Program-made: the position numbers and the translations under genes
Source: a virus
Taxonomy: Duplodnaviria > Heunggongvirae > Uroviricota > Caudoviricetes
Reading direction: 5' to 3' (one strand)
IMG/VR virus record: IMGVR_UViG_2529292726_000022
Coordinates: 1-10,240 of that record
DNA: 10,240 bases
The notes under the pieces: generated by a model
Database searches by the model: none
What the model saw: only the letters and a program-made list of their open reading frames with translations
What the model was told of the DNA's origin: nothing
In this document: positions 1 to 4,933 of the stretch, piece by piece
How the letters are laid out: each line of letters begins with the position of its first letter
Numbering within the stretch: the first letter of the stretch is position 1

Positions 1-1820
1 CCACCGAGATCCAGCGTCAGGCGCAGCAGTTTGTCAGAACCTTCGACAAACTCCGCGTTTTCAATCAGCGCCACACGCAGGTCAACTTTGGCGAAGTCGT
101 CAAAGGTGATGGTTTCCTGAATCGGGTCGTCAGCCAGTGGGCCAGTTACCGGTGCAGCTGTGGCTTTCACTTCTTCTTTGGATGCTTCCACCAGTGCTTC
201 CACCTGTTTCATATCGATACGGTTATACAGTGCCTTGAACGGATTCACTTTATGGCCCAGCAGCGGTTGCTGGATACCATCCCAGGTCAGTTCTGTATTC
301 AGGAATGCTTCTGCACGTTCAGTCAGTTTCGGCAGTACCGGTTTCAGGTACGTCATCAGCACGCGGAACAGGTTAATGCCCATAGAGCAAATCGCCTGCA
401 GATCGGCATCGCGTCCTTCCTGCTTCGCCACCACCCACGGAGCCTGTTCATCAACATAGCGGTTAGCCAGGTCAGCCAGTGCCATGATTTCACGGATAGC
501 TTTGCCAAATTCGCGGCTTTCCCATGCTTCGCCAATCACTTCAGCGGCATCAGTAAAGGTTTTGTACAGTTGCGGGTCAGCCAGTTCGCTTGCCAGCACG
601 CCGTCAAAACGCTTGTTGATAAAGCCTGCATTACGGGAGGCCAGGTTAACCACTTTGTTAACGATATCGGCATTCACACGCTGAACGAAATCTTCCAGAT
701 TGAGATCGATATCATCAATGCGCGAAGAGAGTTTCGCAGTGTAGTAGTAACGCAGGCTGTCGGCGTCAAAATGATTCAGCCAGGTGCTGGCTTTAATAAA
801 GGTGCCGCGAGACTTGGACATCTTCGCGCCGTTCACCGTCACATAGCCGTGAACAAACAGGTTGGTCGGCTTGCGGAAGTTGCTGCCTTCCAGCATGGCA
901 GGCCAGAACAGGCTGTGGAAGTAAACGATATCTTTGCCGATGAAGTGGTACAGCTCGGCGGTGGAGTCTTTCTTCCAGTAATCGTCGAAGCTGGTAGTGT
1001 CGCCGCGTTTGTCGCACAGATTCTTGAAAGAACCCATGTAGCCAATCGGCGCGTCCAGCCAGACGTAGAAGTATTTGCCCGGTGCGTTCGGAATTTCAAA
1101 ACCGAAGTAAGGTGCGTCACGGGAGATATCCCACTGTTGCAGGCCAGATTCAAACCACTCCTGCATTTTGTTTGCCACCTGCTCCTGCAACGCACCGCTG
1201 CGGGTCCATGCCTGCAACATTTCGCTGAAAGAAGGCAGATCAAAGAAGAAGTGTTCGGAATCACGCATTACCGGTGTAGCGCCAGAAACCACTGATTTCG
1301 GCTCGATCAGTTCCGTCGGGCTGTATGTCGCGCCGCAGACTTCACAGTTATCGCCGTATTGATCCGGCGCTTTACATTTCGGGCATGTGCCTTTTACAAA
1401 ACGGTCCGGCAGGAACATGCCTTTTTCCGGGTCGTACAGCTGAGAGATGGTGCGGTTTTTAATAAAACCGTTCTCTTTCAGGCGAGTATAGATAAGCTCG
1501 GACAACTGACGGTTCTCTTCGCTGTGCGTCGAGTGATAGTTGTCATAGCTGATGTTAAAGCCTGCGAAATCAGTCTGATGTTCCTGACTCATTTCGCCAA
1601 TCATCTGCTCCGGTGTGATACCAAGCTGCTGTGCTTTCAGCATGATCGGCGTACCGTGGGCATCGTCGGCACAGATGAAATTAACCTCGTGGCCGCGCAT
1701 TCGCTGGTAACGAACCCAGACATCAGCCTGGATGTGCTCCAGCATATGGCCGAGGTGGATTGAGCCGTTAGCGTACGGCAGCGCGCACGTCACCAGAATT
1801 TTCTTCGCGACTTGGGTCAT
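1..1820 (-). CDS. metG: Methionine--tRNA ligase (MetRS), partial: N-terminal ~606 codons in window, C-terminus beyond window start
   Basis: Minus-strand translation from ATG (complement of 1818-1820) reads [29 protein letters not shown]... with the class I aaRS HLGH motif (encoded ~1746-1757) and KMSKS (encoded 810-824). The frame stays open to position 1, so it is absent from the ORF track (no stop in window). Plus-strand ORFs 160-459, 252-1295, 484-684 are antisense shadows. Confidence 0.95.
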
Positions 1821-1977
1821 AGTAGGCATTACTTCTTTGTAGTGAAAAGGGGCTTGATAGTAACAAAATGGCCTTATGTCTGCCATGTGATAACAGCATT
1901 TCTCATAAATGATTAAATGTCGTAGCTGGAGTACACTACAAGGCGACAATTGCGCAAATTAAAATAAAGGAGACGGG
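1821..1977. promoter_or_regulatory. Divergent metG / mrp intergenic promoter region
   Basis: 157-bp AT-rich gap between divergently oriented starts; SD-like AAGGAG at 1967-1972, 5 nt before the mrp ATG (1978). Individual -10/-35 elements not resolved by eye. Confidence 0.5.
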
Positions 1978-3078
1978 ATGAGCGAGTCCAAATCGCCGGA
2001 TGCCCTGAGAGCAATGGTAGCCGGTACGCTGGCTAATTTTCAGCACCCAACCCTGAAACACAACCTGACTACGCTTAAAGCGTTACACCATGTTGCGTTG
2101 ATGGATGACACACTGCATGTCGAACTAATCATGCCTTTCGTGTGGAATAAGCCTTTTGAAGACCTGAAAGAGCAATGTAGTGGTGATCTGCTCCGTATCA
2201 CTGGCGCAAAGGCTATTGACTGGAAGCTGTCGTACAACATTGCCACGCTTAAGCGCGTCAAAAACCAACCAGGCATTAATGGCGTTAAGAACATTATCGC
2301 CGTCAGCTCAGGCAAGGGCGGCGTGGGTAAATCCTCCACGGCGGTAAACCTGGCACTGGCGTTGGCTGCTGAAGGTGCGAAAGTTGGTATTTTGGATGCC
2401 GATATCTATGGTCCATCAATTCCAACCATGCTGGGCGCGGAAAACCAACGTCCAACCTCACCTGACGGTACTCACATGGCACCTATCATGTCTCATGGCC
2501 TGGCAACCAACTCTATTGGTTATCTGGTCACCGACGACAATGCAATGGTGTGGCGTGGACCGATGGCCAGCAAGGCGCTGATGCAGATGTTGCAGGAAAC
2601 TCTATGGCCTGATCTGGACTATCTCGTTCTCGATATGCCGCCGGGCACTGGTGATATTCAGTTGACGCTGGCGCAGAACATTCCTGTAACTGGTGCGGTT
2701 GTGGTAACTACGCCGCAAGACATCGCGCTGATCGATGCGAAGAAAGGCATTGTGATGTTCGAAAAAGTCGAAGTGCCGGTACTGGGTATCGTCGAAAACA
2801 TGAGTGTGCATATTTGCAGTAACTGCGGTCATCACGAGCCAATTTTTGGCACCGGTGGCGCACAGAAACTGGCCGAGAAATACAACACGCAGTTGTTAGG
2901 CCAAATGCCACTTCATATCTCTCTTCGTGAAGATCTGGATAACGGAACACCAACCGTTATTAGTCGTCCAGATAGCGAATTTACAGCTATTTATCGTGAC
3001 CTCGCAGATCGCGTTGCTGCCCAAATGTATTGGCAAGGTGAAGTAATACCTGGCGAAATCGCATTCCGCGCAGTGTGA
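1978..3078 (+). CDS. apbC: Fe-S cluster carrier ATPase Mrp/ApbC (NBP35 family)
   Basis: 366-aa ORF with SD; deviant Walker A SSGKGGVGKSST, CxxC motif (CSNCGH), and the MSESKSPDALRAMVAGTLANFQHP... N-terminus typical of enterobacterial Mrp; conserved divergent arrangement with metG. Confidence 0.95.
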   Translation: MSESKSPDALRAMVAGTLANFQHPTLKHNLTTLKALHHVALMDDTLHVELIMPFVWNKPFEDLKEQCSGDLLRITGAKAIDWKLSYNIATLKRVKNQPGINGVKNIIAVSSGKGGVGKSSTAVNLALALAAEGAKVGILDADIYGPSIPTMLGAENQRPTSPDGTHMAPIMSHGLATNSIGYLVTDDNAMVWRGPMASKALMQMLQETLWPDLDYLVLDMPPGTGDIQLTLAQNIPVTGAVVVTTPQDIALIDAKKGIVMFEKVEVPVLGIVENMSVHICSNCGHHEPIFGTGGAQKLAEKYNTQLLGQMPLHISLREDLDNGTPTVISRPDSEFTAIYRDLADRVAAQMYWQGEVIPGEIAFRAV

Positions 3079-3115: not shown

Positions 3116-3505
3116 CTACATCACGGGACAATCATCAAACTCGCCACTTCTTGCGTCGTTGATAATGTGAGTGATCACACCAAACACGGCATTGCTGCCC
3201 GTGCATGCATCGTCATCCTTTGGCAATGCTTCCTTCTTACCGGTTCTTAAATCCTCCAGATGCTGACGTGGGTACTTCCGGTATCTTTTTACGCGATATT
3301 CCCCATCCAGAGCGCATACAAGCAGAGAACCATCAACCGGGGTAAGTGAGGAATCGACCACCAGCAATGCACCCTGTAATATTCCCTCACGATGATGACT
3401 ATCAGCTGCCCTCATGAAGTAGGTCGCTGAAGGATGTCTAATTATCTGCTGATCAAGAGAAATACGGCTCTCAGCATAATCCGCCGCAGGAGAAGGGAAG
3501 CCCAT
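3116..3505 (-). CDS. UmuD-family S24 peptidase, natively N-terminally truncated (UmuD'-like), 129 aa
   Basis: Starts MGFPSPAADYAESRISLDQQIIRHPSATYF..., co-linear with UmuD from the residue after its Cys24-Gly25 self-cleavage site. Ser of the Ser-Lys dyad retained (AADSH vs UmuD SGDSM), Lys retained (VKRYR vs VKKLQ). In-frame TAA 12 nt upstream of the ATG (complement of 3518-3520) rules out an N-terminal extension. SD AAGAGG precedes ATG. No umuC-like gene follows. Confidence 0.8.
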   Translation of the reverse strand: MGFPSPAADYAESRISLDQQIIRHPSATYFMRAADSHHREGILQGALLVVDSSLTPVDGSLLVCALDGEYRVKRYRKYPRQHLEDLRTGKKEALPKDDDACTGSNAVFGVITHIINDARSGEFDDCPVM

Positions 3506-3521
3506 AATACTCGCCTCTTAA

Positions 3522-3541
3522 CACTGTATATACATACAGTA
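3522..3541 (-). promoter_or_regulatory. LexA operator (SOS box)
   Basis: Minus-strand TACTGTATGTATATACAGTG: CTGT-N8-ACAG palindrome matching the consensus TACTGTATATATATACAGTA at 17/20, about 16 nt upstream of the UmuD'-like start codon, the same geometry as the E. coli umuDC operator. Confidence 0.8.
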
Positions 3542-3566
3542 TATGTTGAAGCTATATATTTTTGAA
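3538..3566 (-). promoter_or_regulatory. Putative sigma70 promoter of the UmuD'-like gene, overlapped by the LexA box
   Basis: Minus-strand -35 TTCAAA (complement of 3561-3566), 17-nt spacer, -10 TATACT (complement of 3538-3543); the -10 overlaps the upstream half of the LexA box. Confidence 0.5.
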
Positions 3567-3725
3567 CTCTATCTCTTAAAAAAGATGTTAATAAGATGCT
3601 AACTATTGAAAGGCATAAATATATACAATTCCAACAAACGTTATTTTTAACAAATTTTTTCTCTCCGTTGACTTTTGCGAAAGCCTTGTCTGGCCTAAAT
3701 TGCGCGGAAGCTACTTTTTCCTTAC

Positions 3726-3750
3726 AGAGTTATCCACAGAGTTATGCACT
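3726..3750 (+). repeat. Tandem 12-bp repeat containing DnaA-box-like 9-mers
   Basis: agagTTATCCAC / agagTTATGCAC in direct tandem (3726-3737, 3738-3749). TTATCCACA at 3730-3738 is a perfect DnaA box consensus; TTATGCACT at 3742-3750 matches TTATNCACA at 8/9. Confidence 0.3.
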
Positions 3751-3836
3751 TGCATGTATAACCTATACACACTATCTTAATTCGCAAGACACTGATGTTG
3801 CGGTATTGAAGGTTCATTGGGTTAAAAATAGACATT

Positions 3837-3867
3837 AAAAAGCCCAGTTGACTAGGCTGGGCTTTTT
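3837..3867. terminator. Bidirectional intrinsic terminator hairpin
   Basis: AAAAAGCCCAG-(9-nt loop)-CTGGGCTTTTT: 11-bp perfect inverted repeat with an A-tract 5' and T-tract 3', so it is U-tract-flanked on both strands. No confident CDS ends at it on either strand. Confidence 0.65.
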
Positions 3868-3900
3868 AAAAGGAAACAGAGTTTGCGGCTCTGTTCCTGA

Positions 3901-3920
3901 GCCATAAGTATCTGGCGACT
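3901..3920 (+). repeat. Direct repeat copy 1 (gccaTAAGTATCTGGCGACT)
   Basis: 20-bp sequence repeated at 4074-4093 with one mismatch (16-bp identical core TAAGTATCTGGCGACT at 3905-3920 and 4078-4093). Confidence 0.7.
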
Positions 3921-4073
3921 GAATTAAGATTAACCGAATGTACTGGATTCATCAAGAAACGTTGAGTGGTCATACCAGGTAATAATGACCATTTACTAAA
4001 CATCGTTGTTCTCAAAGAAGATTTAAGTCCAGGTTTTTGGTGACTCTAAAACCTTACCTTAACTCGAAATCGT

Positions 4074-4093
4074 GCCGTAAGTATCTGGCGACT
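4074..4093 (+). repeat. Direct repeat copy 2 (gccgTAAGTATCTGGCGACT)
   Basis: Second copy, 173 bp downstream of copy 1; preceded by AAATCGTGCCG (4066-4076), which recurs inside the small ORF at 4189-4199. Confidence 0.7.
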
Positions 4094-4167
4094 ACAGATA
4101 TTGCAACTGCAAAGGCAAGCCCAAAGGTATTTGCAGCTAGGCGCGATAAAACTAAGTGAGGCCTGTT

Positions 4168-4251
4168 ATGGTTAACTTACTGTTCAAAATCGTGCCGCCG
4201 ATGTTCGCGATTATCAAAGCGATCATTGAGTACGTAAACCAGCGTCCATAA
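4168..4251 (+). CDS. Candidate small hydrophobic protein, 27 aa (MVNLLFKIVPPMFAIIKAIIEYVNQRP)
   Basis: ATG at 4168 preceded by SD-like GTGAGG with 6-nt spacing; stop TAA 4249-4251; terminator hairpin 14 nt downstream. Peptide is mostly hydrophobic with a charged C-terminal tail. Too short for the ORF track. Confidence 0.3.
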   Translation: MVNLLFKIVPPMFAIIKAIIEYVNQRP

Positions 4252-4264
4252 CGCTAGTTGCTAC

Positions 4265-4297
4265 AGGCCCCATCAAGAGCATGGGGCCTCTTTATCG
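4265..4297 (+). terminator. Hairpin (aggcccca-N9-tggggcct) plus CTTTAT tract downstream of small ORF
   Basis: 8-bp GC-rich perfect stem followed by a short T-rich tract on the plus strand. On the minus strand it sits 18 nt past the stop of the operon's last gene (4307) but has no U-tract in that direction. Confidence 0.5.
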
Positions 4298-4306
4298 TAC
4301 TATTGC

Positions 4307-4933
4307 TTATTTTTTACGGACTGAGTTGTTCACTGCTCTGGCAATCTTCTCCCGCAATTGCTGCGTTCCGTGGTACTGAACCGCAATATCTCTCAACTCG
4401 TTCACCAGTTCTCGAATCTGGTGATCTTTAAGCTCATTATTTGGGTGATTGGTAACAACTCTGGTTAATTCACCCTTGTCTTTTGCTCTTACGTATGCAG
4501 CTCTTGTGCATTCGACCCATGTATTACCGCCTACATTAACTTCGTAGATTAGGCTGGACTTATCTGTCAATTCGGAACAAATACGGGCCGTGGTCTGGCA
4601 ACTAGAGCATTCGCAGTTATCGCGGAAACCGTGATCTACCGGTCGAGAAAGAGGTTTAACTTTTTCATCCAACTTCATCACAGCATCGTGATAAGCGTTC
4701 CAGCCGTCATCTTTACCAAGTTGATAAATCTCTGAAGGCTCCATGTAGTCTATATCGCAACCTTCTTCATCCGATCTATCTGGTCGCTTCCCTGGTAATC
4801 GCTCATAAAAACGATTTCTGTCTCGACGTTCGGCTCTCAGTGCTAACGCAAGAAGTTGCTCAAGCGAGGTATTTGCACCAGCAATAATTTCATTGAGAAT
4901 ATCTTCTGTGAGATCTTTCGCTACCGTGCTCAT
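4307..4933 (-). CDS. Hypothetical protein, 208 aa (last gene of operon)
   Basis: Long minus-strand ORF; ATG (complement 4931-4933) overlaps the stop of the upstream gene (ATGA); contains a Cys cluster (CECSSCQ). No recognisable family by eye. Confidence 0.7.
   Translation of the reverse strand: MSTVAKDLTEDILNEIIAGANTSLEQLLALALRAERRDRNRFYERLPGKRPDRSDEEGCDIDYMEPSEIYQLGKDDGWNAYHDAVMKLDEKVKPLSRPVDHGFRDNCECSSCQTTARICSELTDKSSLIYEVNVGGNTWVECTRAAYVRAKDKGELTRVVTNHPNNELKDHQIRELVNELRDIAVQYHGTQQLREKIARAVNNSVRKK

What the first reader, a model, noticed from the sequence alone, without database searches (positions are those of the whole stretch)
3726..3750. Tandem DnaA-box-like repeats in the island's regulatory region
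AGAGTTATCCAC / AGAGTTATGCAC are directly tandem and contain a perfect TTATCCACA DnaA box plus an 8/9 match 3 bp downstream, in the same orientation. A perfect 9-mer is expected by chance only about once per 130 kb of double-stranded sequence, and here it is part of a tandem repeat. It could be a DnaA-dependent regulatory site or the relic of a phage/plasmid-like origin region.
Basis: seen in the sequence. Interest (0 to 1): 0.4.

Follow-up and report, generated by a model that had tools for sequence, protein, structure and literature searches.

The report
Captured nrdA promoter with DnaA boxes
The two DnaA boxes are real and belong to a conserved copy of the E. coli ribonucleotide-reductase (nrdA) promoter carried by a phage-plasmid, where it drives no reductase gene but points at the antitoxin RNA gene of an unannotated small-toxin module.

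Summary
TTATCCACA lies at 3730-3738 and TTATGCACT at 3742-3750, inside two tandem 12-mers. The second box is 7/9 to the strict consensus and 8/9 only to TTWTNCACA.

The window comes from a ~110-kb pECOH89/SSU5-like E. coli phage-plasmid. Window 3636-3780 is a homologue of the Escherichia nrdAB promoter, with identical geometry: two boxes abutting the -35, a 17-bp spacer, and -10 TATCTT. GenBank records of phage P1 already annotate the same element as an "nrdA-like promoter" with a "dnaA box".

It is not an origin. There are no iterons, and the plasmid's RepB initiator gene lies about 25.6 kb away.

Among diverged family members, 28% of the surrounding block varies, but none of the 17 box positions and only 1 of the 29 box, -35 and -10 positions do.

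The promoter points rightward. About 50 nt downstream sits a bidirectional terminator, shared with a convergent 86-nt AgrB-like antitoxin sRNA. That sRNA belongs to an unannotated type I toxin-antitoxin module encoding a 27-aa toxin. Relatives of this module in other enterobacterial plasmids carry a paired NrdR operator at the same position instead of the DnaA boxes.

The boxes themselves are a known kind of element. The new lead is that a toxin-antitoxin module appears wired to nrd-type regulators; that wiring is inferred, not shown.

The parts
3636..3729 (+). Upstream part of the nrdA-promoter homologue (an AT-rich stretch and TTGACT block collinear with E. coli K-12 nrdA upstream)
   Evidence: Alignments with K-12 NC_000913 2344100-2345100. 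Local alignment z=52. P7-type phage-plasmids share window 3506-3754 at 81%.
3730..3738 (+). DnaA box 1, TTATCCACA (perfect), at about -55 to -47 of the predicted start
   Evidence: Identical to box 1 of the K-12 nrdA promoter. Invariant in all complete family loci found through the terminator. One metagenome variant reads TTATCCACT (L129).
3742..3750 (+). DnaA box 2, TTATGCACT (7/9 strict, 8/9 relaxed), at about -43 to -35; its last base is the first base of the -35 hexamer
   Evidence: Identical to box 2 of K-12. One family locus reads TTATGTACT (L096).
3750..3755 (+). -35 hexamer TTGCAT (K-12: TTGCAA)
   Evidence: Same register as in K-12. Only its last base varies within the family.
3773..3778 (+). 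-10 hexamer TATCTT, 17 bp after the -35 (identical to K-12)
   Evidence: The hexamer and the 17-bp spacer length are invariant while the spacer sequence differs among haplotypes.
3785..3869 (+). Predicted short rightward transcript (~85 nt) from the nrdA-like promoter to the terminator. The start is inferred from the -10, not mapped.
   Evidence: Fold: -26.1 kcal/mol, z=-3.7, dominated by the terminator hairpin. No coding potential. No significant complementarity to the toxin leader.
3835..3869 (.). Bidirectional intrinsic terminator: a 13-bp perfect inverted repeat with an A-run on one side and a T-run on the other
   Evidence: Inverted repeat I4. Terminator scan hit on the minus strand. Compensatory changes in relatives.
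3835..3920 (-). 86-nt AgrB-like antitoxin sRNA gene, convergent with the nrdA-like promoter
   Evidence: Rfam AgrB full-length match, 27.6 bits, below the gathering score of 40, E=0.01-0.025. In 9 sequences, 13 of 27 predicted pairs show compensatory changes.
3927..3955 (-). Promoter of the sRNA: -35 TTGATG (3955-3950), 17 bp, -10 TAATCT (3932-3927), start at about 3920
   Evidence: Read from the sequence. The same arrangement (TTGAAG, 17 bp, TAAGCT or TAAGAT) is seen in relatives (sequences). By inspection only.
4074..4093 (+). Target site in the toxin 5' leader: a second copy of the first 20 nt of the sRNA gene (19/20)
   Evidence: Direct repeat D1. The two copies change together in every relative. 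Duplex of the sRNA 5' end with the leader has z=-6 to -8.5 in 8 loci.
4168..4251 (+). Small hydrophobic ORF (27 aa, MVNLLFKIVPPMFAIIKAIIEYVNQRP), the presumed type I toxin, with a GTGAGG Shine-Dalgarno sequence
   Evidence: Against variants: 6 synonymous changes, 2 non-synonymous changes and an ATG-to-GTG start change (by inspection). Unannotated in nearly all of 93 PLSDB plasmids.
4265..4289 (+). Terminator-like hairpin after the toxin ORF
3524..3539 (.). LexA box (CTG-N10-CAG) in front of humD (3116-3505, minus strand). Context only, about 190 bp left of the DnaA boxes.
   Evidence: Sequence. The homologous site in P1 is annotated as a LexA binding site for lxr and humD.

Best explanation
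The tandem 9-mers are the two DnaA boxes of a captured Escherichia-type nrdAB promoter, the element P1 records call an 'nrdA-like promoter'. It sits in the humD-proximal intergenic region of a pECOH89/SSU5-like phage-plasmid.

Shown: the ~145-bp block is homologous to the chromosomal nrdA upstream region and has identical geometry. Box 1 lies at -55/-47. Box 2 lies at -43/-35 and abuts the -35 TTGCAT. The spacer is 17 bp and the -10 is TATCTT. Within a locally hypervariable block, the boxes, both hexamers and the spacer length are kept in diverged plasmid lineages.

Inferred from the E. coli nrdAB promoter: DnaA bound at these sites tunes RNA polymerase recruitment at this weak promoter. It would stimulate at low occupancy or as DnaA-ADP and repress at high DnaA-ATP. 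Rightward transcription would then track the host's replication-initiation status.

Shown: the promoter drives no RNR gene. After about 50 nt it meets a bidirectional terminator shared with a convergent antitoxin sRNA gene of a type I toxin-antitoxin module.

Inferred, weakest step: its job is to modulate that module. Possible routes are transcriptional interference, 3'-end overlap or antisense pairing with the antitoxin RNA, or read-through into the toxin leader.
For: Homology:
- Window against K-12 nrdA upstream gives z=52; P1 against K-12 gives z=41.
- H53 matches at 81.4% over 139 nt, E=5e-28.

Prior annotation:
- M95666 annotates an 'nrdA-like promoter' and a 'dnaA box'.
- NC_005856 notes a stretch '94 pct identical to Escherichia coli DNA region containing two predicted DnaA boxes'.

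Source:
- The exact 25-mer (boxes plus TTGCA) occurs, among one genome per species, only upstream of nrdA in Escherichia and Shigella. An Enterobacteriaceae bacterium G50 contig also carries the nrdA-type context, and three further hits are phage-plasmid sequence.

Spread:
- 74 IMG/VR contigs carry it: 28 P7-type, 17 P1-type, 18 window-type, 6 of a further type, 3 chromosomal, 1 other context and 1 truncated.
- Each type has a TAnnnT -10 exactly 17 bp after TTGCA (by inspection).

Constraint:
- In block 3655-3784, 37 of 130 positions vary among 5 family members.
- None of the 17 box positions varies (P=0.002). Only 1 of the 29 box, -35 and -10 positions varies (P=2e-4).
- Loci found through the terminator alone all keep box 1, and all but one keep box 2.
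- The overlapping 80-aa ORF has a stop codon in one haplotype, so the constraint is not from coding.

Known function of the E. coli sites: PMC8203912.

Link to the toxin-antitoxin module:
- In 7 of 7 plasmid relatives and 13 of 14 metagenome relatives that lack the DnaA boxes, the same position and orientation hold a consensus-like sigma-70 promoter.
- That promoter carries a canonical paired NrdR operator, and NrdR is the other nrd-specific regulator.
Against: - No experiment shows DnaA binding or promoter activity at this copy.
- The promoter is weak by consensus (7 of 12) and the simple scan did not list it. The authentic K-12 nrdAB promoter scores only 8 of 12 by the same count.
- The NrdR operator of the chromosomal promoter is missing here; the best box is 4/6 with no partner. 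Regulation therefore cannot be identical to nrdAB.
- The plus-strand terminator is strong in this family (five T), so most transcripts may simply end after about 85 nt with no obvious product. That RNA shows no complementarity to the toxin leader beyond chance.
- The invariance of the boxes could be partly inherited. Recombination with chromosomal or P1/P7 copies, which all carry identical boxes, would also keep them. The block is a local hotspot of variation, consistent with mosaicism.
- In P1 and P7 the same promoter occurs without the toxin-antitoxin module, so the association is not universal.
Confidence: 0.6

Rival explanations
1. Non-functional hitchhiker. A piece of chromosomal nrdA upstream DNA was picked up by an ancestral P1-like plasmid and spread by recombination. 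The boxes are intact only because every donor copy has them, and the promoter does nothing useful here.
For: It drives no RNR gene, and the downstream ~85-nt RNA has no recognisable function. The block is mosaic and hypervariable, as expected for a recombination hotspot. The chromosomal NrdR operator has decayed.
Against: - The flanks have diverged 15-28% from Escherichia chromosomes and 14-21% between haplotypes, without matching any one species. Yet the 25-nt core, the -10 and the 17-bp spacing are kept in at least 4 haplotypes plus the P1, P7 and 'type 5' lineages. Neutral decay at the flank rate would rarely leave 17 of 17 box positions intact.
- In relatives, a different nrd-type regulated promoter occupies the same position next to the toxin-antitoxin module.
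Confidence: 0.15
2. The nrdA-like promoter is the real promoter of the toxin mRNA. Transcripts read through the hairpin at 3835-3869, carry the antisense of the sRNA gene in their leader, and continue to the 27-aa ORF.
For: No convincing sigma-70 promoter was found between the sRNA gene and the toxin leader (and inspection). In relatives the hairpin has a poor T-run on the plus strand (CTTTCAA) but a good one on the minus strand, which would allow rightward read-through.
Against: - In this family the plus-strand T-run is good (GGGCTTTTT).
- The separate 20-nt target copy at 4074-4093 co-evolves with the sRNA 5' end. It would be redundant if the mRNA already held a perfect 86-nt complement.
- In the architecturally similar dinQ/agrAB and dqlB/agrB loci, the toxin has its own promoter between the sRNA gene and the target site (PMC12365149).
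Confidence: 0.15
3. The boxes are a DnaA sink, or a DnaA-dependent regulator of the divergent LexA-controlled humD promoter, rather than part of a rightward promoter.
For: They are high-affinity-type boxes on a plasmid. humD and its LexA box lie about 190 bp to the left, and the humD-to-boxes segment travels together in P7-type plasmids.
Against: - Two boxes are a negligible sink.
- In P1 the boxes lie about 1 kb from humD, with lxr and hot in between.
- The conservation of the -35, the -10 and their spacing is explained by a rightward promoter, not by a sink.
Confidence: 0.07
4. Relic or part of a replication origin (plasmid oriV or the phage lytic origin).
For: The region is AT-rich (GC 0.36-0.41) and holds a perfect DnaA box. 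Plasmid origins of the RepB/P1 type do carry tandem DnaA boxes, for example the Citrobacter plasmid origin at L011 2200-2460.
Against: - No iterons or other repeat families lie nearby.
- The RepB initiator gene is about 25.6 kb away.
- The block is collinear with a chromosomal promoter, not with any origin.
- A true RepB-type origin in a related plasmid looks very different: five iterons, a GATC cluster and flanking DnaA boxes.
Confidence: 0.03

Closest known systems
E. coli nrdAB promoter (PnrdAB) with its two upstream DnaA boxes
   Same: Homologous sequence over about 145 bp. Identical boxes, the same 3-bp gap, box 2 abutting the -35, a 17-bp spacer and an identical -10 TATCTT.
   Different: - No RNR gene lies downstream. 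The phage-plasmid's own nrdA/nrdB genes are about 19 kb away.
- The functional NrdR operator (boxes 1 and 2 of PMC12176259) is absent.
- The transcript meets a terminator after about 50 nt.
- The flanks are 15-28% diverged from the chromosome.
'nrdA-like promoter' / 'dnaA box' of phage P1 (GenBank M95666; misc_feature in NC_005856) and its P7 counterpart
   Same: The same captured element. The 25-nt core is identical, and the segment from humD to the boxes is homologous with P7 at 81%.
   Different: - P1 and P7 diverge from the window immediately after the -35, use another -10 (TATTGT), and carry a single 6/6 NrdR box over that -10.
- Their promoter faces the small upfN/upfM ORFs in antisense and not a toxin-antitoxin module.
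- The window's copy keeps more of the chromosomal promoter, through the -10.
dinQ-agrAB (E. coli chromosome) and dqlB-agrB (pOXA-48) type I toxin-antitoxin systems, compared with the neighbouring module and not with the boxes
   Same: - Divergent arrangement of a ~85-nt sRNA and a small hydrophobic toxin.
- The sRNA 5' end is repeated in the toxin 5' leader 75-95 nt before the start codon.
- There is a sub-threshold, full-length Rfam AgrB match (PMC12365149).
   Different: - The toxin matches neither the DinQ nor the DqlB NCBIfam model, although both positive controls scored.
- There is no nucleotide homology to the pOXA-48 or K-12 loci (z about 0), whereas those two match each other at z=14.7.
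- No LexA box lies at the toxin.
- An extra nrd-type regulated promoter converges on the sRNA gene.
Tandem DnaA boxes of plasmid origins (P1 oriR / RepB-type oriV)
   Same: Tandem, same-orientation consensus DnaA boxes on a phage-plasmid.
   Different: There are no iterons, no adjacent initiator gene and no GATC cluster. Compare L011 2200-2460 with the window.

Membership tests
Escherichia-type nrdAB promoter | Sequence homology to the nrdA upstream region | tested here: met
   Local alignment z=52, 0 of 300 shuffles reaching it. H53 matches at 81.4% over 139 nt, E=5e-28. Alignments.
Escherichia-type nrdAB promoter | Two same-orientation DnaA 9-mers 3 bp apart, with the second abutting the -35 | tested here: met
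   Boxes at 3730-3738 and 3742-3750, -35 at 3750-3755. The offset to K-12 is the same (3126) for the boxes and the -10.
Escherichia-type nrdAB promoter | -35 TTGCAA-like hexamer, 17-bp spacer, -10 TATCTT | tested here: met
   TTGCAT, 17 bp, TATCTT. The spacer length is fixed while its sequence varies among haplotypes.
Escherichia-type nrdAB promoter | NrdR operator: two 16-bp boxes (C4, A6, A8, T9, T11, G13) with a 15-16 bp linker downstream of the start (PMC12176259, PMC13584703) | tested here: not met
   The best box is 4/6 (3788-3803) with no partner. The K-12 control recovers boxes 0, 1 and 2.
Escherichia-type nrdAB promoter | Drives ribonucleotide reductase genes | tested here: not met
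   No ORF lies downstream and a terminator follows at 3835-3869. The phage nrdA/nrdB genes are about 19 kb away.
Escherichia-type nrdAB promoter | DnaA binds the boxes and changes transcription | not testable with these tools
   Known for the chromosomal promoter (PMC8203912). It needs EMSA or footprinting and reporter fusions for this copy.
Replication origin (oriV or oriC type) | Iterons or repeated initiator sites next to the DnaA boxes | tested here: not met
   The repeat finder on 3400-4400 gives only the 12-mer pair and scattered two-copy matches.
Replication origin (oriV or oriC type) | Adjacent replication initiator gene | tested here: not met
   The RepB-family initiator lies at record 111806..1095 and the boxes at about record 86,212, roughly 25.6 kb apart.
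Replication origin (oriV or oriC type) | Supports initiation (unwinding element, autonomous replication) | not testable with these tools
   The region is AT-rich, but that does not discriminate.
DinQ/Dql-AgrB type I toxin-antitoxin (neighbouring module) | sRNA reaches the Rfam AgrB gathering score | tested here: not met
   27.6 bits against a gathering score of 40. The match is full-length, E=0.01-0.025. A relative scores better against RNAI.
DinQ/Dql-AgrB type I toxin-antitoxin (neighbouring module) | Toxin matches NCBIfam DinQ (NF041472) or DqlB (NF041473) | tested here: not met
   No hit at E<=10. The controls scored: pOXA-48 DqlB 73.5 bits and DinQ 54 bits.
DinQ/Dql-AgrB type I toxin-antitoxin (neighbouring module) | Structured, divergently transcribed sRNA whose 5' end pairs with the toxin 5' leader | tested here: met
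   13 of 27 pairs show compensatory changes. The seed and target co-vary. Duplex z=-6 to -8.5.
DinQ/Dql-AgrB type I toxin-antitoxin (neighbouring module) | The peptide is toxic and the sRNA neutralises it | not testable with these tools
   Needs expression and rescue assays as in PMC12365149.

The most novel reading that the evidence does not exclude
The DnaA-box promoter is the sensory input of a three-part type I toxin-antitoxin module: toxin mRNA, AgrB-like antitoxin sRNA, and a convergent promoter wired to a regulator of the host nrd genes.

In E. coli SSU5-like phage-plasmids that input is an nrdA-type promoter with DnaA boxes. In every relative examined it is a strong promoter carrying a canonical paired NrdR operator. 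Either way, transcription into the 3' end of the antitoxin gene, and possibly on into the toxin leader, would rise when replication initiation or dNTP status is disturbed. That would tip the balance towards the toxin.

This would be a toxin-antitoxin or addiction module that senses replication and nucleotide-pool state. It would also be an NrdR operator outside RNR genes, on plasmids.
Probability: 0.3. Interest if true: 0.7.

Novelty: new variant of a known kind. Interest (0 to 1): 0.45.

Why it matters
On their own the boxes are ordinary. They are a captured, DnaA-responsive host promoter that P1 annotators noticed decades ago and nobody has explained.

The context adds interest. The element is kept under constraint in several phage-plasmid lineages that spread ESBL genes; the identical plasmid pCUVET20-PYO4.2 carries a frameshifted blaCTX-M. 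It drives no reductase gene. In this family it converges on the antitoxin RNA of an unannotated small-toxin module.

Relatives of that module carry the other nrd-specific control element, a paired NrdR operator, at the same spot.

If the link is functional, it would be a plasmid or phage stability or defence module that reads the host's replication-initiation and dNTP state. It would also extend the NrdR regulon beyond RNR genes. The idea is directly testable with reporter fusions and Northern blots.

Tried and rejected
1. Replication-origin reading: rejected. There are no iterons, the initiator gene is about 25.6 kb away, and the block is collinear with a promoter.

2. The 80-aa ORF 3596-3838 over the boxes is coding: rejected. 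One haplotype has a stop codon and most changes are non-synonymous.

3. The upstream promoter region of the module's relatives (Kosakonia, Citrobacter, Enterobacter, Klebsiella plasmids) is homologous as a whole to the nrdA promoter, with decayed DnaA boxes. By eye and in MAFFT it looked so. Local alignments against dinucleotide shuffles do not support it (z from -0.8 to 3.7). Only the 17-22-nt NrdR-box segment stands out. I therefore claim shared regulator motifs, not homology of the whole promoter.

4. The neighbouring module is a DinQ/DqlB family member: rejected on sequence. It works like one.

5. The short plus-strand RNA is a trans-acting regulator of the toxin leader: no complementarity beyond shuffles. 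I found no convincing conserved structure in its body by inspection.

6. Rfam at gathering thresholds and tRNA search: nothing in the window.

7. P1 downstream region scanned for a comparable sRNA or toxin-antitoxin module: nothing found.

8. Pfam and NCBIfam for the small peptides: no family.

10. The P1 genome paper (PMC523184) and pOXA-48 accession JN626286 are not held. A literature search for the P1 'nrdA-like promoter' found nothing beyond the GenBank annotations.

11. I could not locate the toxin's own promoter with confidence.
Full report
**What the window is.** The 1-kb stretch around the finding is 100% identical to ~112-kb E. coli plasmids such as pCUVET20-PYO4.2. It is 99.3% identical to Escherichia phage Cyrano. 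The pECOH89 plasmid (NC_023916) belongs to the same family.

- These elements carry tail-fibre genes, tRNAs, dnaE, a primase, a helicase, thyX, a dihydrofolate reductase gene, and their own nrdA and nrdB. I read this gene content as that of an SSU5/pHCM2-like phage-plasmid; that classification rests on my own knowledge.
- In window coordinates the genes are: metG (minus strand, 1 to about 1820), apbC (1978-3078, plus strand), humD (3116-3505, minus strand), an 800-bp intergenic region (3506-4306), and then a minus-strand operon of hypothetical genes.

**Observation.** The sequence is as described. AGAGTTATCCAC (3726-3737) and AGAGTTATGCAC (3738-3749) are tandem. TTATCCACA (3730-3738) is the only perfect DnaA box in the window.

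- The second site, TTATGCACT (3742-3750), is 7/9 to the strict consensus and 8/9 only to TTWTNCACA.
- One perfect box per 10 kb is not rare enough by itself: 0.07 are expected, and 13 of 200 shuffles had one.
- Relaxed boxes are not enriched in the window.
- Chance is excluded by homology, not by counting.

**What it is.** A distant search of phage records matched window 3506-3754 to P7 (81%) and 3631-3754 to P1.

- In GenBank M95666 the P1 counterpart is annotated 'nrdA-like promoter' with a 'dnaA box'.
- In the P1 genome it is annotated as '94 pct identical to Escherichia coli DNA region containing two predicted DnaA boxes'.
- I fetched the K-12 nrdA upstream region. Window 3636-3780 aligns to it collinearly. 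The boxes are identical, the 3-bp gap is the same, box 2 runs into the -35 (TTGCAT here, TTGCAA in K-12), the spacer is 17 bp, and the -10 TATCTT is identical.
- The coordinate offset between window and K-12 is the same (3126) for the boxes and the -10.
- The local alignment score is 52 SD above dinucleotide shuffles, and 41 SD for P1.
- An E. coli chromosome in PLSDB matches window 3640-3778 at 81.4%, E=5e-28.
- Among one genome per species, the exact 25-mer (both boxes plus TTGCA) occurs upstream of nrdA in Escherichia and Shigella. It also occurs in an Enterobacteriaceae bacterium G50 contig with the nrdA-type context. Three more contigs carry phage-plasmid sequence, two of which look like contamination or misbinning. 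The source is therefore an Escherichia-type nrdA promoter.
- In E. coli these boxes bind DnaA and set nrdAB expression in a manner that depends on the bound nucleotide (PMC8203912).

**Not an origin.** No iterons or repeat families lie near the boxes. The plasmid's RepB-family initiator lies at record 111806..1095, about 25.6 kb from the boxes at about record 86,212. A real RepB-type origin, seen in a Citrobacter plasmid fetched for another reason, has five iterons, a GATC cluster and flanking DnaA boxes. Nothing of that kind is present here.

**Is it maintained?** An exact-pattern scan of IMG/VR found the 25-mer in 74 contigs: 28 P7-type, 17 P1-type, 18 of the window's type, 6 of a further type, 3 chromosomal, 1 in another context and 1 truncated.

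- By inspection, every phage-plasmid type has a TAnnnT hexamer exactly 17 bp after TTGCA, although the sequence after the -35 differs (TATCTT, TATTGT, TACTGT).
- That scan is biased towards intact boxes, so I also collected family members through the downstream terminator. All complete loci keep box 1, and one has a single change in box 2.
- Loci collected through the toxin leader in metagenomes gave the same picture, plus one haplotype with TTATCCACT in box 1.
- Within five aligned family members, the nrdA-like block is the most variable part of the intergenic region: 37 of 130 positions vary. None of the 17 box positions varies (hypergeometric P=0.002). Only 1 of the 29 box, -35 and -10 positions varies (P=2e-4).
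- The spacer sequence differs between haplotypes while its length stays at 17.
- The 80-aa ORF over the block is broken in one haplotype, so coding does not explain the pattern.
- The flanks are 15-28% diverged from all Escherichia chromosomes and 14-21% between haplotypes. The copies are therefore old paralogues, not recent imports.
- Caveat: if the block is mosaic through recombination with other copies, which all carry the same boxes, part of this footprint is inherited.

**What the promoter points at.** Taking the start about 7 nt after the -10 (about 3785, inferred), the transcript meets a perfect 13-bp hairpin after about 50 nt. The hairpin has an A-run before it and a T-run after it (3835-3869). 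There is no ORF. The phage-plasmid's nrdA and nrdB genes are about 19 kb away.

On the minus strand the same hairpin terminates an 86-nt RNA (3920 to 3835).
- Rfam's AgrB model matches it end to end at 27.6 bits, below the gathering score of 40, E=0.01-0.025.
- In nine sequences from five genera, 13 of 27 predicted pairs show compensatory changes. One U-G pair works only on the minus strand (by inspection).
- Its first 20 nt recur at 4074-4093. The two copies change together in every relative, including complete seed replacements.
- The predicted duplex of the sRNA 5' end with the leader is 6-8.5 SD better than shuffles in eight loci.

A 27-aa hydrophobic ORF (4168-4251) starts 75 nt after the target site. 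It has a Shine-Dalgarno sequence and a terminator.
- Family variants show 6 synonymous changes, 2 non-synonymous changes and an ATG-to-GTG switch (by inspection).
- Relatives have one or two paralogous ORFs of this kind.

This is the architecture of dinQ/agrAB and dqlB/agrB (PMC12365149), but it is not that family.
- The peptides miss the DinQ and DqlB NCBIfam models, which score their own controls.
- There is no nucleotide homology to either locus, although those two loci match each other at z=14.7.
- The ORF is unannotated in almost all of 93 PLSDB plasmids.

**The lead that links the boxes to the module.** I defined an NrdR box from the literature: C4, A6, A8, T9, T11 and G13, in two 16-mers with a 15-16 bp linker (PMC13584703, PMC12176259). 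I scanned upstream of the sRNA terminator.

- The K-12 control recovers nrdA boxes 0, 1 and 2.
- All 7 plasmid relatives that lack the DnaA boxes have a 6/6 box 39-48 bp before the hairpin, with a 5/6 or 6/6 partner at 15-16 bp.
- The 14 metagenome relatives have a 6/6 box in a similar place, 40-54 bp before the hairpin in those measured. Thirteen of them have the partner at 15-16 bp, and the exception has a 7-nt duplication in the linker.
- At least eight different box sequences are involved.
- The operator sits just downstream of a consensus-like promoter (TTGTAC, 16 bp, TAGAAT). The background rate is 0.21 such boxes per kb.
- The window-type loci have no box of 5/6 or better at the corresponding position. 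The best is a 4/6 remnant at 3788-3803 that shares GATGTTGCG with one relative's box. They carry the DnaA-box promoter instead.
- So the same slot, convergent on the antitoxin gene, is always filled by a promoter carrying a control element typical of nrdAB: NrdR in the relatives, DnaA here.
- I first thought the relatives' whole promoter was a decayed nrdA promoter. Shuffle tests do not support that, and I withdraw it.

**Mechanism, with steps marked.**
- Shown: homology, geometry, conservation, position and orientation relative to the sRNA gene.
- Inferred from PnrdAB: DnaA at -55/-35 modulates RNA polymerase at a weak promoter.
- Inferred and weakest: the output acts on the toxin-antitoxin module. 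Possible routes are collision with sRNA transcription, the 35-nt 3' overlap of the two RNAs, antisense read-through across the sRNA gene, or read-through into the toxin leader.
- The plus-strand RNA body shows no pairing with the toxin leader.
- The plus-strand T-run is good here but poor in relatives, so read-through may matter more in the relatives.
- In P1 and P7 the promoter exists without the module, so it must also be able to serve another purpose, or none.

**Verdict.** The element is a known kind, the nrdA-like promoter of P1, in a new host element and a new context. Its association with an unannotated type I toxin-antitoxin family that elsewhere carries NrdR operators is the part worth an experiment.

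Noticed in passing
window 3835-4289: An unannotated type I toxin-antitoxin-like module. It comprises an 86-nt AgrB-like sRNA (minus strand, 3920 to 3835), a co-evolving 20-nt target in the toxin leader (4074-4093), a 27-aa hydrophobic ORF (4168-4251) and a terminator (4265-4289). The architecture matches dinQ/agrB and dqlB/agrB, but there is no match to the DinQ or DqlB models and no nucleotide homology to those loci.
   Followed up: yes
L010 2924-2972; L011 2772-2819; L089 1423-1469; L090/L091 1431-1477; L092 1429-1476; L093 1148-1194; metagenome loci L110-L130: In relatives of the module (Kosakonia, Citrobacter, Enterobacter and Klebsiella plasmids, and gut and soil metagenomes), a canonical paired NrdR operator (two 16-bp boxes, 15-16 bp linker) follows a strong sigma-70-like promoter that converges on the sRNA gene. 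This would be an NrdR site outside RNR genes.
   Followed up: partly
window 1-3078: The phage-plasmid carries full-length metG (methionyl-tRNA synthetase) and apbC/mrp genes, arranged divergently. From memory, they are also divergent neighbours on the E. coli chromosome, which would suggest a captured chromosomal segment next to humD.
   Followed up: no
window 3518-3547 and 3524-3539: The LexA box in front of humD also overlaps a rightward promoter-like site (TTAACA, 18 bp, TATGTT). In P1 the homologous LexA site serves both humD and the divergent lxr gene. Here lxr is absent, so an SOS-controlled rightward transcript could run into the nrdA-like region.
   Followed up: no
window 3656-3830: This block is a local hotspot of variation within the family, at about 28% variable sites. 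The flanks are far more conserved, with about 1 variable site in 3556-3655 and few across 3856-4155. This suggests mosaicism or recombination between diverged copies of the nrdA-like element.
   Followed up: partly
L002 (P1) about 2636-2651; L005 (P7) equivalent: The P1 and P7 nrdA-like promoters carry a single 6/6 NrdR box over their -10 (TTTCTAAATATTGTGA and TTTCTACATATTGTGG), with no partner box at 15-16 bp.
   Followed up: partly
L102 (Acinetobacter idrijaensis, 221-bp contig); L106 ('MAG: Bacillota bacterium'): These two genome-collection contigs carry P7-type and window-type phage-plasmid sequence respectively. They are most likely contamination or misbinning in those assemblies.
   Followed up: no
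L011 2200-2460 (Citrobacter freundii pCF5125-2): A textbook RepB-type origin: a TTATCCACA box, five ~19-bp iterons (TTATGAAAGTGACCGTA-like), a GATC cluster and an inverted DnaA-box pair. It lies a few hundred bp from that plasmid's copy of the toxin-antitoxin module and served as a contrast for what an origin looks like.
   Followed up: partly
L087 36868-39870 (phage Cyrano); L088 24093-26485 (pCUVET20-PYO4.2): The phage-plasmid encodes its own nrdA and nrdB, about 19 kb from the nrdA-like promoter. The identical plasmid carries ISEcp1 with a frameshifted blaCTX-M. Whether the phage nrdAB genes have their own nrd-type promoter was not checked.
   Followed up: no
L004 495-638 (K-12 ypaB); L002 upfO/upfN: Small ORFs are annotated on the opposite strand across the nrdA promoter in K-12 (ypaB) and across its P1 copy (upfO, upfN). 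The window has no equivalent intact minus-strand ORF over the boxes, which casts doubt on those annotations.
   Followed up: no
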